DNA from: Vicinamibacterales bacterium
GTDB lineage: Bacteria; Acidobacteriota; Vicinamibacteria; Vicinamibacterales; JAMQPK01
DNA length: 52,987 nucleotides
Direction: 5' to 3'
NCBI GenBank assembly: GCA_023717525.1
Contig: JAMQPK010000127.1
Location: 1-52,987 of the forward strand
The position numbers were made by a program. Shown here one piece after another: positions 6,001 to 18,000 of this stretch. The first letter of the stretch is position 1; each line of letters opens with the position of its first letter.

Positions 6001-9000
6001 TGACCGCTCCGATCCAGCAACGATGCAAGGCACCTGCCGTTCATTGAACGAAAACACCAAGTGATTGCGTGCGTTCGTCGGTTGTGCCGGGTCGCAGCGA
6101 ACAGCCTCGTCCGAACCGGGGAGCTGGAGCAACACATTTGTCGTTGCGCTGCCGTCTAGAAACGCTTCGGCCATTTCTGACGCCCGTGGAACACCGCGAT
6201 GATTTCGAGGCGGTCGCCTCGCAGTCTGTACGGAATCACGTAAGGGGTGCCTGTGACGACCAGCTCGCGCGTACCAGCCACTCGACCGGGCCGACCACGA
6301 TTGGGGAGTACCGCAAGGCGTTCAACGGCGGCGAGAAGGGCCGTCGCGATTCTGCCGGCGGCACCGGGATTGTCATGCTCGACATAGGCACGAAGATCCG
6401 CAAGGTGGGCGATCGCGCGCGGCGACCAGGAGATGATCACACGCGAGGCGCCTTTCGCTCGCGCTTCCGGCCCCACGAGCGAAGCCACGTCGAGACCTGT
6501 TGATGGGCGACACTGCGGCCTTCATCCAGTTCCCTGAGGCCGCCAAGAATCTCATCCAGTTGCCAGCTCTCCGACTCGACAAAGGCCGCAATCGCTTCTG
6601 CGGCCAGAAACGACTTGGAGCGCCGGGCACGCTTCGCCAGCGCCTCGAGCCGCTTCTTGGTACCGATATCGATGCGAACGGATAGCGTTGTCGTCATGTG
6701 TGTTGATATGTGTGAAGTTGTATACAGTGTAGCACACCTGAGGCGCTCGTGCCGGTTCTGAATCAGTCGAACATCGACTTTCAAGTGGGCCTATCGTTCC
6801 GGCCCTACGCCTCGCCCAGATTCGAGATGAAGCTCAGCCTCGGCCTCTGGAAGCCGACGAGTGACAAATCGCCCAACCACCAATCACCCAATCTCCAATC
6901 TCCCTCAGGGTCCCGCGACGGCAATCCCAACGACCCCGCTCCTGACGATGGATTGCGCGAGAAAGCCCGACCGCCGCACCTCGTCAATGAACGCGTTGAC
7001 CGTGTTCAGCCGCTCTGCGTTCCCGGCCGGCACTATGATGGTTTGCTCGACATCATACAAGTCGTCCGGCAAAAGGCGGAGCCCGGGCGCGCCGCGCATC
7101 GTGTCGTTCAATCTCTGTCGATTGGAGCCGAACGCGTCCACTTCTCCCGCTGCGAGCGCCAGCGTGCCTTCGCCGCCGTTGGATTCGGTAATCTCGACGA
7201 GCTTGGCCCGCTTCAGCGTCCGGGCGAGATAGAGCGCCATCGAATCAGCCTTCCTGGCGCCGATCTTCAGGTTCGGCTGGTCGATCTCCCTGACCGACCG
7301 GATGGGCGAGTCTTGCTTCACGAGGAAGCTCTGCTGCACCAGCATGAACGGCCGCGAGAACTCCACCGCGCCTGCCCGTTCGGGGTTGTAGGCCACAAAA
7401 CCGACGTCCGCCTGGCCGGTACGCACTGCGTCGATCACATTCTGGGGTGTCTGCACGCCGAGCAGTTCGACCTCGACACGCCGCTGCCGCGCGAGCTCGC
7501 GCGCGAGATCCACGGCAGGGCCACTCAGTTCGCCGGTTGCCGGGTTCTTGACGGCCATCGCAGGGTTTCCGGCGATGAAGGCGACACGCAACGTCCCAGT
7601 TGGCGCGATCGCCGGCTGCCCGGCGAGCTGCACAGCGCCGGGCAGGAGTGTCAGCAAAATGCTGACGAGGAGTAGACGGCTTCGCACCTTCATTACTCCG
7701 TGTGACATTGCCTCAACTACTTGGTGGTTTTCAAGAGATGAAAAGGCCACAATCAGTATGGAGTTGCAGATGAGAGCTGCCGCCGTTGTCACCGTCGCTG
7801 TCGCCGTCTTGAGCGCCCCGTTGCTGGCCCAGGAACAGAAGCCCGTTCCGAAAGACTCCACCCGCGTTTCCATCCCCGGGTGCGCTAAGGGCTACATTTT
7901 CACGGTGGCCCCCCGCACTCTGGAAAACACAGGCACAGTCGACCTCCCCGAAGGCATGCATCTGCGCATGAATGGGCCGAAGAAGGTGATGGCCGAGATC
8001 AAAGCTCATCAAGGCTCGATGATCGAGATCAGCGGCCTGATGAAGAAAGGTCAGTACATGCCGGGCGGTGTAGGCGTCGGCGGCGGTGTGCGGATTAGCC
8101 CCGGTTCGGCGCCCGGTAGCGGTGCCCCGAACGCCGATCAGCCCTTCATCGACGTCGAGGGCTGGCGCTCGATCGTGGGTCAGTGCCCTTCCCGATAGTT
8201 GAACTCTGAAATATCGGATACCCTCTGACGACGCGGAGTCGGACCGCACGTAAACATAGGTGTTTACTTGGATATCAGGCCGAAATGACTCATCGATCCG
8301 GGCACGCGCTTTGCTGAGACGCGGGCGGCAAGGTCCGACCAACGACGACGCTGAGGAGCTGACATGACGAGCAGGCGGCGGTTGACCCTCGACGGAAATG
8401 AAGCGGCCGCGTCGGTCGCGTATCGCGCGAGCGAAACGATCGCCATCTATCCAATCACGCCGAGCAGCCCGATGGCGGAAGTCTGCGACGAGTGGGCGAG
8501 CCGCAAACGGACCAACCTCTGGAACGCCATTCCGGAGATGGCGGAGATGCAGTCGGAAGCAGGCGCCGCGGGCGCGGTGCACGGCGCGCTACAGGCAGGT
8601 GCGCTCTCGACGACATTCACGGCGTCTCAGGGACTGCTCCTGATGATCCCGAACATGTACAAGATCGCGGGCGAGCTGACGCCGTTCGTGATGCACGTGG
8701 CGGCGCGAACGCTCGCCACGCATGCCCTGTCGATTTTCGGCGACCACTCCGACGTGATGGCCTGTCGTCAGACCGGGTTCGCGCTGCTCTGCTCGAACTC
8801 GGTCCAGGAAGCGCACGACATGGCCGCTGTGGCCCACGCGGCGACACTCGAGACCCGCATCCCGTTTCTCCACTTCTTCGATGGGTTCCGCACGTCGCAC
8901 GAGGTCGCAAAGATCGAAGAGCTCAGCGACGACGATCTCCGCTCGATGATCCCGGAATCCTCAGTCTTCGCGCATCGCCAGCGCGGCCTGACCCCGGACC

Positions 9001-15000: not shown

Positions 15001-18000
15001 TGGCGTCGCACCCCACGACCGACTGGCGGTTCGGCGCTCGCTTCCGTAATTACACCTACTCCAATCACATGCCGGCGACGAGCATCACGAATTACGTCGC
15101 CTACGATTCGAACGCGTCAACGACTCCCACCGGCGGTCCGGATCTCTATGCCCACGACCGCACCACGCTCGACGCCGACGCCACCTGGAGCAAGTTGAAC
15201 CCGCTCGCGCTGACTGTCGGCTACACGCACAACGGCAGCGGATACGACGCGCGGATCCTCCAGTCGAGCGGCGAGGACGTGTTCCGCGTGTCGGCCGACG
15301 CGGTGGGATCTTCGTGGACGACGTTCCGGGTTCAATACGAAGTCGGCAGCCGCACCGGATCCGGCCTGGACGAGAAGGCCTTGACCGACATCGGCGAGCA
15401 CCCGGAAATGCGGCACTACGACGTGGCCGACCGGACGAGAAACCGCTTCACGGGGCAGATCGACATCGTCCCGTCGGACGTCTGGATGTTCAGTGTGTCG
15501 GGCGGGATCCTGAACGACGACTACAGCAACACCTTCTTCGGGCTGCAGGAATCGAGCGGGCGCACGTTCTCGCTCGCCGCCGATTACCACCAGCCGAACG
15601 GCATGGGCGCTGGTGCCACCTACAACCTCGAGCGGTATGCCGGACTGCAACAATCGCACGAAGGGGATTCGTCAACGGCGCAGTTCAACGACCCGCTGCG
15701 CAACTGGACGGCTGACTCGACCGAGACGGTCCACTACTTTTCCATCTACGCGACGCCGCCCCGCATCGGCCGCGACACCGAGGTGCGGTTCTCGTACGAC
15801 TTCAGCCACGCGGAAGGCAATTACCTCTACACGATTCCGGCGGGCAGCCCGATTCCGGCGCCCAATCAGCTGCCGAACGTGTTCAATAAGCTGCAGCAGC
15901 TGCACATCGACGCGCGCCACCGCATCAAGAACAACCTGATGGCGACCTTCTCGTATCTCTACGAGCCGCTGAGCATCTACGACTTTGCGTTCGATCCCAG
16001 CGTGGTCAACGGCATCGTGCAGCCCAGCTCGCTGGTGATGGGTTACGTCTACCGTCCGTACACCGCGAATTCGTTCACATTCGGTCTGAGATACCTGTGG
16101 TGAGTTAACCGGGGGATCTATTCATGTCTTTGGAGGTTCCGATGCCGACAACGTTCAACCCGAAGCGCTTGCTCTTGACGACCATACTCGCCCTCGCCGC
16201 GGGGTTTGTCGTAACAACTCCAGCAGCGGCCCAGGATGCCGTCAAGAAAGGCCAGGAAGTTTACGCGGCTCAGAAGTGCCAGGTCTGCCACGCTATCGCC
16301 GGCAAAGGGAACAAGGCGAATCCGCTGGACGGAATCGGTGCAAAACTCTCGGCTGACGACATCAAGCAGTGGATCACTCACCCGACCGAGGCCGCGGCGA
16401 AGGCCAAGTCGACCAAGAAGCCGCCGATGCCGGCCAAGTACGGCAGTCTGCCGGCTGCTGACCTCGACGGGCTCGTCGCGTACATGCTCAGCCTCAAGTA
16501 GCCAGCGCTTGTGATGAGGATCAGCACGCTCGCGCGCCACCCGTTGGCGATCGCCGGCGCGGTCGTGGCCACGGCCTCGGCCGCGGTGTTCATCACACTG
16601 GTGATCGCCATGCTGGCGGGGATGCTCAACAACCCGTACGCGGGCCTGGTCGTCTTCATCGCAATCCCGGCGGTGTTCGCAATCGGGCTTCTGCTCATCC
16701 CCGCAGGCATGTCGCTCGAGCGCCGGAAATTGCTTCGCAATCCATCTGCGGTTTCCGAATGGCCCGTCGTCGATTTCCGTCGCGCGGAGGTACGTCGAGC
16801 AACGCTCCTCATCGCGGGGCTCACGGCTGTCAACCTCATCATCATTCTGCTGGCCGGGTACGGCGGCCTCCACGCAATGGAAACGCCGAGTTTCTGCGGA
16901 CAGGCGTGCCACGCGCCGATGCATCCGCAGTTCCAGGCCTGGCAGGGCGCGATGCATTCCGGCGTTCCCTGTGTCGGATGCCACATCGGGGAAGGGGCGG
17001 CGGCACTAGTACACGCGAAGCTTTCCGGCGTGCGGCAGCTGATGATGGTCGCCGTCAGCACCTATCCGAAGCCGATTTCGCCGGGCGCGAAGATGCCTCC
17101 CGGCGCCCAGGCGGAGCTGTGCAGGGCATGTCACCGGCCCGGACGCGTTGTCGCCGATCGCGTCCGTGTCCTCCGCGAGTATGCCGACGACGAAGCCAAC
17201 ACCGAGACGATGACCGCGCTGCAGATGCACATGAGCGTCACGACGTCATCGGCGCATGCGATTCACTGGCATGCGGATCCTGCTGTTCGCGTCGAGTACG
17301 TGGCAACGGATGCGGAGCGGCAGACGATTCCGTACGTGCGCGTCACCGACGCGAAAGGCCAGGTCAAGGAGTTCATCGCGCCGGATACGAAGGAGGAGGC
17401 GATTCGCGGCGCCGAACGCCGTACGATGGACTGCGTCGATTGCCACAATACGGTCGGGCATCCCATCTCGCCGACGCCGGAGCAGGCCGTGGATCGAGCC
17501 ATCGCGGCTGCGACGGTGAGTCGCGAGCTCCCCTTTGTCCGGAGGGAGAGCGTCCGCCTCGTGAAGGAGTCGTACCCCACCCAGGAAGAGGGCGTGCGCG
17601 CGATCGAAGAAGGATTGCGGAATTTCTACCGCGCCAGGGCCGGCTCAGTCGACCCGCAGGTGGTGACGAGAACCGTGGGAGCCGTGCAGGACGTCTATCG
17701 CCGGAACGTATTTCCCGCGATGAAGGTGACCTGGGGCAGCTATCCGGACAACAAAGGCCACATGACGTCGAACGGCTGCTTCCGCTGCCATGACGATTCA
17801 CACGAGGCCAAGGACGGATCGAAAATCAGCGGCGACTGCGAGTACTGCCACAAACAACTCGCGGCCCAGCCCTGACCACCACTACTTGCGCCCTGTGCGC
17901 GCGAGAGTCCTCATCACCTTCCGCACCGCCTGGTTCAGCCGGTCATCGAAGCTGGAGAACCGCGTGTCATCGACTCCTGCCAGACGGGCAATCTCGGCGA

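What a model noticed while it worked through the whole genome (the two positions that open the first line are those of the whole stretch)
8364..17875. Pyruvate:ferredoxin oxidoreductase operon continues into an MtrAB porin-cytochrome conduit with ImcH/CymA-type quinol de [...]
nifJ-type PFOR, a DHOD-like flavoprotein, decaheme MtrA, MtrB, a monoheme cytochrome and an ImcH-like NapC/NirT protein form one tightly packed operon (gaps -4 to 39 bp). A second MtrAB locus (C29:3180-14899) with Rieske/cytochrome b/9-heme genes also abuts a second PFOR-DHODL pair. This likely links anaerobic pyruvate oxidation to extracellular electron transfer.
Evidence so far: Coordinates and labels. Same six-gene order in 5 genus relatives among 20 MtrB loci read; DHO_dh next to MtrB in only 19 GTDB genomes, 14 in this order; Mtr-Rieske/cyt b linkage in 5 other relatives.
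(Added by a program. Inside this text positions count along the whole contig: contig position 1 is position 1 of the stretch shown here. "Call 12" and the like, gene names such as g00115 and contig names such as C1 are that model's own, and its searches are not shown. The text may have been shortened before it was handed on; [...] marks where a part breaks off. The agent that wrote the report below was given it as the finding of a first reader that could run no searches.)

Follow-up and report, generated by a model that had tools for sequence, protein, structure and literature searches.

The report
Pyruvate oxidation operon with electron conduit
In a bog acidobacterium, the gene for the anaerobic pyruvate-oxidising enzyme PFOR lies end to end with genes for a cytochrome chain predicted to run from the inner membrane to the cell surface, which likely lets the cell pass electrons from sugar breakdown to outside acceptors such as peat organic matter or iron when oxygen runs out.

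Summary
The six-gene run is real: nifJ PFOR, a DHOD-like flavoprotein lacking the DHOD catalytic loop, decaheme MtrA, MtrB, a predicted His/Met monoheme cytochrome and a six-heme ImcH homolog, with gaps of -4 to 38 bp. The order holds in 7 of 8 cassette-bearing genomes of the 25-genome genus and in one further genome. The link is lineage-limited: of 13 other cassette genomes, 9 have PFOR and only 1 has it nearby. The stronger pattern is that this mtrA-mtrB-cytc-imcH cassette often sits beside some anoxic pyruvate or formate module: PFOR, pta-ackA-pflB, or formate dehydrogenase-N (11 of 14 and 5 of 11 loci, against 1 of 38 and 4 of 29 controls; the second contrast is not significant). Best reading: an anoxic operon that sends catabolic electrons outward through menaquinone, like Shewanella's PFL-FDH-CymA-Mtr route (0.5). 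Transcription, flow direction and the flavoprotein's role are untested, and MtrC was not found. The C29 locus is not one operon. This scan reported the same arrangement before in another genome. New variant of a known kind.

The parts
8364..11969 (+). nifJ-type pyruvate:ferredoxin oxidoreductase, 1201 aa
   Evidence: TIGR02176 1766.6 bits against cut-off 911; POR_N, POR, EKR, Fer4 and TPP domains
11966..12946 (+). DHOD-like flavoprotein (PRK07565 family), 325-326 aa; class 1 DHOD/DPD barrel without the catalytic Cys loop
   Evidence: NF005741 375.6 bits against cut-off 303; ELHLYHAA in place of ELNISCPN; model pLDDT 84; best folds DHOD class 1A and DPD, TM about 0.7; no membrane helix
12943..13893 (+). 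Decaheme MtrA/DmsE-family cytochrome with signal peptide, no lipobox
   Evidence: 10 CXXCH; TIGR03508 254.8 against 192.2; PDB 6r2q_A E 4e-63
13908..16103 (+). MtrB/PioB-family outer-membrane barrel, 731 aa
   Evidence: PF11854 271 bits; TIGR03509 235.8, just under 240.05; PDB 6r2q_B E 6e-7; start
16142..16501 (+). Exported monoheme class I cytochrome c, predicted His/Met ligation
   Evidence: PF00034; one CXXCH; Met96 kept in 39 of 41 aligned homologous stretches
16511..17875 (+). ImcH homolog (NapC/NirT-related inner-membrane multiheme cytochrome), 3 predicted membrane helices, 6 heme motifs
   Evidence: Hydropathy and motifs, 1 CX3CH plus 5 CX2CH; PF03264; matches the homolog definition in PMC6295460

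Best explanation
Six tightly packed genes likely form one anoxia-induced operon in which PFOR would oxidise pyruvate to acetyl-CoA while the ImcH-cytochrome-MtrAB chain would carry the surplus electrons from the menaquinone pool out of the cell. Shown: gene identities, order, spacing, conservation, and partner swapping in relatives. Inferred: co-transcription; PFOR reduces ferredoxin; the electrons reach menaquinone by an unidentified step (the DHOD-like flavoprotein is the candidate; NADH and complex I are the alternative); ImcH oxidises menaquinol; MtrA inside MtrB hands electrons to soluble outside acceptors such as humic quinones or chelated Fe(III), because no MtrC was found; acetyl-CoA leaves as acetate where pta-ackA is present.
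For: Gaps of -4 to 38 bp, all on one strand. Same order in 7 of 8 cassette-bearing genomes among the 25 of the genus; in those 6 relatives it is the only close nifJ copy found. Close relatives extend it: MFS-pta-ackA-PFOR-flavoprotein-cassette (L069); pta-ackA-PFOR-flavoprotein, then an inverted formate dehydrogenase-N, then the cassette (L076, L077, L105). Non-homologous partners stand in the same place: pta-ackA-pflB-pflA directly upstream (L070, whose genome gave no nifJ match), directly downstream (L088) or convergent (L186); Sec-type FdnG with an FeS-NrfD subunit divergent (L066, L074, L075, L194), downstream (L071, L187) or between cyt c and mtrA on one strand (L191). PFOR, PFL or FDH within 10 kb of imcH: 11 of 14 against 1 of 38 control loci, and 5 of 11 against 4 of 29 in a second draw. 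glgP, pfk and glgX flank the cassette in 5 genus relatives. G000 has PF02621 menaquinone genes, two small ferredoxins and NuoF, and gave no hydrogenase or Rnf match over cut-off, so it lacks obvious other sinks for reduced ferredoxin (95% complete). PMC6295460 reports ImcH implicated only in quinol oxidation. PMC5852097 shows PFL-FDH-quinone-CymA feeding current in Shewanella.
Against: No transcript or activity data; the one RNA run gave only short pieces from relatives. The second draw is not significant (Fisher p 0.08), kin are not independent, and the first draw's controls are mostly other classes. Of 13 further cassette genomes, 9 have nifJ PFOR and only G222 has it beside the cassette. 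G020, the nearest relative on the ImcH tree, has the cassette but gave no PFOR or flavoprotein match (92% complete). L068 keeps PFOR-flavoprotein-cytc-imcH without mtrAB, and L192 and L193 have cytc-imcH alone. Control imcH loci also have PFOR nearby in 3 of 29, so general anoxic clustering exists. A His/Met cytochrome is usually high-potential (own knowledge), which fits an outward ImcH-to-MtrA step poorly. No ackA or PFL was found in G000; pta lies at a contig end.
Confidence: 0.5

Rival explanations
1. The genes share an anoxic promoter or a mobile anoxia island, but PFOR is no more coupled to the conduit than any other donor; the adjacency was fixed once in one lineage.
For: PFOR adjacency is confined to one part of the ImcH tree plus one case with a different PFOR. 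8 of 9 PFOR-bearing cassette genomes keep PFOR elsewhere. The C29-type island loosely mixes Crp/Fnr, Usp, ScdA, Zip, Rieske/cyt b and the flavoprotein. Controls show PFOR nearby in 3 of 29.
Against: The neighbours that recur at this cassette are specifically pyruvate- and formate-oxidising and glycogen genes, in several different arrangements. The flavoprotein stop overlaps the mtrA start in the window and lies about 20 nt from it in relatives.
Confidence: 0.27
2. The conduit imports electrons from reduced humics or Fe(II), as Mto and Pio systems do, passing them through the monoheme cytochrome to oxidases or to the quinone pool; PFOR is a bystander or runs reductively.
For: MtrAB without MtrC plus a monoheme cytochrome and an inner-membrane multiheme resembles the Mto layout (own knowledge; no MtrC). 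The cytochrome is predicted His/Met. G000 has three heme-copper oxidases.
Against: The neighbours are electron-releasing catabolic genes; PFL, pta-ackA and glycogen phosphorylase fit fermentation, not fixation. PMC6295460 found ImcH homologs only in Fe(III) reducers.
Confidence: 0.15
3. The ImcH-cytochrome pair feeds periplasmic reductases, the flavoprotein dumps PFOR electrons on a soluble acceptor such as fumarate, and MtrAB is an optional add-on.
For: L068, L192 and L193 keep cytc-imcH without mtrAB. The flavoprotein folds like soluble class 1A DHOD, which uses fumarate (own knowledge). Malic enzyme and an aspartate-type exchanger recur nearby.
Against: mtrAB is present in 13 of 14 and 9 of 11 cassette loci. 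The flavoprotein lacks the DHOD catalytic residues.
Confidence: 0.08

Closest known systems
Shewanella oneidensis formate-dependent route, PFL-FDH-menaquinone-CymA-Mtr (PMC5852097, passages read)
   Same: Anoxic pyruvate cleavage to acetate with electrons passed through a NapC/NirT-type quinol oxidase to an MtrAB conduit; relatives place pfl, fdn and pta-ackA beside the cassette.
   Different: Here PFOR replaces PFL, ImcH replaces CymA, no MtrC was found, and the genes are adjacent.
Geobacter ImcH and its homologs (PMC6295460, abstract and passages read)
   Same: Three N-terminal helices, one CX3CH and 5-9 CX2CH motifs; acidobacterial homologs are already listed.
   Different: Six heme motifs against seven. 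That survey found no mtrAB next to imcH; here and in many relatives they are adjacent.
PFOR with DHOD-like gene: Propionibacterium nifJ1 cluster (PMC7650540, section 3.4.3 read) and Synechocystis sll0741/sll0744 unit (PMC11368403, passages read)
   Same: A nifJ gene transcribed with a DHOD-like gene, induced under microoxia in Synechocystis; a quinol-linked role is postulated for the DHOD-like subunit in Propionibacterium.
   Different: The GltD/NfnB-like third gene is absent here, and those papers describe no cytochrome conduit beside it.
Sideroxydans MtoD-MtoA-MtoB-CymA/ImoA cluster (recalled; also named in earlier scan notes and PMC6295460 passages)
   Same: Decaheme, porin, monoheme cytochrome and inner-membrane multiheme in one cluster, without MtrC.
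   Different: ImcH-type rather than CymA-type; His/Met rather than bis-His monoheme (MtoD ligation recalled); catabolic neighbours.
Peat Acidobacteriota EET clusters EET1 and EET2 (bioRxiv 10.64898/2026.05.27.727921; abstract, one results section and passages read)
   Same: Bog acidobacteria with porin-multiheme clusters; PFOR proposed as an electron source from metabolic reconstruction.
   Different: Those are Terriglobales, UBA7540 and Bryobacterales clusters anchored on extracellular cytochromes. The text read gives no PFOR gene adjacency and no ImcH, and leaves donors unresolved.

Membership tests
nifJ-type PFOR | Single-chain enzyme scoring over the TIGR02176 cut-off with TPP and Fe-S domains | tested here: met
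   1766.6 against 911 bits; domains; cluster cysteines invariant in 16 sequences
Class 1 dihydroorotate dehydrogenase | Catalytic loop N-x-S-C-P-N and substrate-binding Asn/Thr | tested here: not met
   ELHLYHAA against ELNISCPN, and FTRF against INTL, in the 1ep1 alignment; the Cys-equivalent position varies H/R/F/Y in 25 sequences
Class 2 (quinone) dihydroorotate dehydrogenase | N-terminal membrane/quinone-binding extension | tested here: not met
   326 aa, barrel starts at the N-terminus, no hydrophobic helix; top folds are class 1 and DPD
PRK07565 DHOD-like protein | Score over the NF005741 cut-off | tested here: met
   375.6 against 303 bits
PRK07565 DHOD-like protein | FMN binding and electron acceptor | not testable with these tools
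   Lys171 and Gly247 invariant, Gly246 and Ser269 nearly so; their FMN role is recalled from DHOD structures
MtrA/MtoA/DmsE decaheme | Ten CXXCH, signal peptide, adjacent MtrB | tested here: met
MtrB/PioB porin | Family score | tested here: met
   PF11854 271 against 23 bits; TIGR03509 just under cut-off
Shewanella MtrCAB | Surface decaheme MtrC/OmcA | tested here: not met
   No such gene in the locus; PF22113 over cut-off only on MtrA itself in G000 (95% complete)
ImcH homologs | Three membrane helices, CX3CH beside them, 5-9 CX2CH | tested here: met
   against the definition; helices from a simple hydropathy scan
ImcH homologs | Menaquinol oxidation | not testable with these tools
   Met137 and Lys170 invariant among the aligned homologs; likeness to the NrfH heme 1 and quinol-site residues is recalled
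CymA | Tetraheme with one N-terminal helix | tested here: not met
   454 aa, three helices, six motifs; CymA definition
Mto cluster | Bis-His monoheme MtoD (recalled) | tested here: not met
   Met96 conserved in 39 of 41, His80 in 18 of 41
Propionibacterium PFOR triad | GltD/NfnB-like gene flanking PFOR | tested here: not met
   Absent from the window; best G000 match 29% on C130; present in other families, e.g. L162, L170, L171

The most novel reading that the evidence does not exclude
The DHOD-like flavoprotein is a PFOR- or ferredoxin-linked menaquinone reductase, so one operon encodes a complete wire from pyruvate to the cell exterior, and soil and peat Vicinamibacterales plug PFOR, PFL or formate dehydrogenase into the same ImcH-MtrAB cassette to respire humic quinones.
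Probability: 0.15. Interest if true: 0.8.

Novelty: new variant of a known kind. Interest (0 to 1): 0.55.

Why it matters
The donors and direction of acidobacterial porin-cytochrome systems in peat are stated as unresolved in the 2026 preprint read here. A cassette packed with pyruvate, formate and glycogen catabolism names candidate donors and predicts outward flow in an abundant soil and bog order usually treated as aerobic (own knowledge). It also joins a Geobacter-type ImcH to a Shewanella-type MtrAB, which a 2018 survey did not find, and offers a compact setting to test the uncharacterised PFOR-associated DHOD-like flavoprotein.

Tried and rejected
A PFOR-flavoprotein complex prediction was never run: the queue was full, so binding is untested. 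RNA evidence: run X20 held only short, divergent pieces and shows neither transcription nor co-transcription; the soil runs with small word shares were not used for habitat. Regulatory motifs: no FNR- or CRP-like box better than 2 mismatches in 24 upstream regions (consensus boxes recalled); a shared 12-mer lay in opposite orientation in relatives and was rejected. Promoter and terminator scans were at chance level, 3 against 1.9 and 10 against 7.4. No solved relative of the ImcH protein by sequence. My first idea that the C29 juxtaposition is unique to G000 was too strong: the matching flavoprotein gene lies about 10-21 kb from an mtrB in 10 relatives, though mostly without PFOR. The GTDB-wide count could not be repeated; the genome scan stopped at 19 of 64 parts and kept 80 loci. 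Word searches of earlier findings added nothing.
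Full report
Observation. The window is contig C75 of a 3.78 Mb, 95% complete genome. 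Its closest records are Vicinamibacterales/Acidobacteriota genomes and the best-matching run is a bog metagenome, possibly the source sample. Six genes run on the + strand from 8364 to 17875: nifJ PFOR (TIGR02176 over cut-off), a PRK07565 DHOD-like protein, a decaheme with 10 CXXCH, an MtrB barrel starting at 13908, a monoheme cytochrome and a 454-aa protein with three predicted helices, one CX3CH and five CX2CH. Gaps are -4, -4, 14, 38 and 9 bp with the starts chosen. GC is even across the six genes, 0.62-0.66. X1 contigs bridge 4 of 5 junctions, and relatives show the fifth.

Second locus. On C29, mtrA2-mtrB2 (+) converge on a minus-strand unit of cyt c, Rieske, cyt b and a 9-heme protein; PFOR2 and DHODL2 (+) diverge from that unit. 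PFOR2 is 65% and DHODL2 50% identical to the window copies. In 11 genus loci the matching flavoprotein gene has no PFOR beside it, and 6 genus genomes (75-98% complete) have the flavoprotein but gave no nifJ match. C29 is a loose anoxia island, not a second copy of the operon.

Conservation. The genus search returned 25 genomes. Eight carry the close cassette mtrA-mtrB-cytc-imcH; seven have PFOR and the flavoprotein directly upstream. G020 has neither gene by these queries. Twelve of 25 have nifJ; five of them (G003, G007, G012, G013, G017) have it away from this cassette. Many of these genomes have frameshifts, probably from long-read assembly (inference).

Partner swapping. Of 80 imcH loci, 17 were close (55% or more) and 63 distant; 3 and 25 were dropped as shorter than 19 kb. 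PFOR, PFL or FDH lay within 10 kb in 11 of 14 close loci (PFOR 3, PFL 2, FDH 6; two of the 14 duplicate genus genomes) and 1 of 38 distant loci. Those controls are mostly other classes, and a 40% identity filter may miss distant partners. A second draw from 221 genomes of the order (121 with an imcH match) gave 11 new close loci and 29 controls that I picked from the top of the list with long contigs: 5 of 11 against 4 of 29, Fisher p 0.08. Arrangements differ: MFS-pta-ackA-PFOR-flavoprotein-cassette (L069); the same with an inverted fdnG, FeS-NrfD, fdhE, fdhD block inserted, leaving PFOR 10-11 kb from mtrB (L076, L077, L105); pta-ackA-pflB-pflA upstream, downstream or convergent (L070, L088, L186); FDH divergent, downstream or inside the cassette (L066, L074, L075, L194, L071, L187, L191). 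The FdnG gene is split at a TGA that reads as selenocysteine. glgP, pfk and glgX flank the cassette in five genus relatives. On ImcH trees with weak deep support, PFOR adjacency falls in one part of the tree, with one separate case using a distant PFOR (L189); PFL and FDH are scattered. The partners are 66-100% alike between loci, so this may be one ancestral island shuffled and eroded rather than repeated convergence.

Results against. Of 13 further cassette genomes, 9 have nifJ and only G222 has it nearby. L068 has PFOR-flavoprotein-cytc-imcH without mtrAB, and its genome has only a distant mtrB. L192 and L193 have cytc-imcH alone; L073, L195 and L196 have no such partner.

The flavoprotein. 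It models as a TIM barrel (pLDDT 84) closest to class 1A DHOD and DPD, but lacks the catalytic Cys loop and substrate Asn residues and has no membrane anchor. It is therefore unlikely to be a dihydroorotate dehydrogenase; a flavin electron carrier is the likelier role (inference). G000 has two small ferredoxins, so PFOR has an ordinary acceptor. The step from ferredoxin to menaquinone is the gap in the mechanism.

Genome context. G000 has three heme-copper oxidases, NuoF, PF02621 menaquinone genes, E1 dehydrogenases and a Sec-type FDH on C73. No NiFe or FeFe hydrogenase, Rnf or MtrC passed cut-off, and no ackA or PFL was found; pta lies at the end of C84. This fits a facultative heterotroph needing an anoxic electron sink.

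Mechanism. Most likely the operon is induced in anoxia, PFOR cleaves pyruvate from sugars or glycogen, electrons reach menaquinone, ImcH oxidises menaquinol, and MtrAB passes electrons to soluble outside acceptors (0.5). All steps beyond gene content are inferred. The predicted His/Met cytochrome may be too high in potential for the outward step and may serve another acceptor. Rivals are shared regulation without coupling (0.27), inward flow (0.15) and a periplasmic or fumarate sink (0.08).

Literature. PMC6295460 (abstract, passages) defines ImcH homologs and found no mtrAB next to imcH. PMC8805035 (passages) says acidobacterial mtrCAB clusters had no inner-membrane quinone oxidoreductase nearby, and has no occurrence of 'pyruvate' or 'ImcH'. 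PMC7650540 (section 3.4.3, passages) postulates a PFOR-GltD-DHOD-like complex. PMC11368403 (passages) lists sll0741 and sll0744 in one microoxia-induced unit. PMC5852097 (passages) gives the Shewanella route. PMC5900883 (passages) notes mtrA/mtrB and nifJ in acidobacteria separately. The preprint 10.64898/2026.05.27.727921 (abstract, section 9, passages) infers PFOR as a donor without adjacency; its supplements are closed and may bear on this. Nine answered searches of an open-access library, seen mostly as listings, showed no paper describing the adjacency; subscription journals are largely missing. Earlier scan notes describe the same arrangement in other genomes; they are not independent support.

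Verdict. Real, conserved in one lineage, and part of a wider link between this cassette and anoxic pyruvate or formate catabolism. New variant of a known kind; interest 0.55.

Noticed in passing
window 8250-8267: A perfect 7-bp inverted repeat with a 4-bp spacer, 96 bases upstream of the PFOR start; a possible operator, not found upstream of the relatives tested.
   Followed up: partly
L068:1557-11359 (G043): MFS-pta-ackA-PFOR-flavoprotein-cytc-imcH with mtrAB cleanly missing, a natural deletion variant if the assembly is right.
   Followed up: partly
L191:8641-19770 (G071): Formate dehydrogenase-N genes lie between cyt c and mtrA on the same strand, the tightest donor-to-conduit arrangement seen.
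   Followed up: partly
L105:722-2923 and similar loci: The FDH membrane arm is one FeS-NrfD fusion resembling HmcB/HybA plus HmcC/HybB rather than FdnH plus FdnI.
   Followed up: no
L146-L152, L160, L161, L163, L164: The DHOD-like gene persists without an adjacent PFOR, beside Crp/Fnr, ScdA, Zip, multicopper oxidase and OsmC genes, so it may have a PFOR-independent role.
   Followed up: partly
221 genomes of the order: ImcH homologs were found in 121 of 221 genomes, and mtrAB lay within 10 kb in 16 of 29 control loci.
   Followed up: partly
window 4049-6028 (-): Flavin amine oxidase domain fused to a C-terminal cytochrome c.
   Followed up: no
window 17882-18322 (-): PIN-domain gene converging on imcH, 6 bases from its stop.
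   Followed up: no
window 23192-24580 (-): ORF with a weak NQR2/RnfD match below cut-off; the only such hit in the genome.
   Followed up: no
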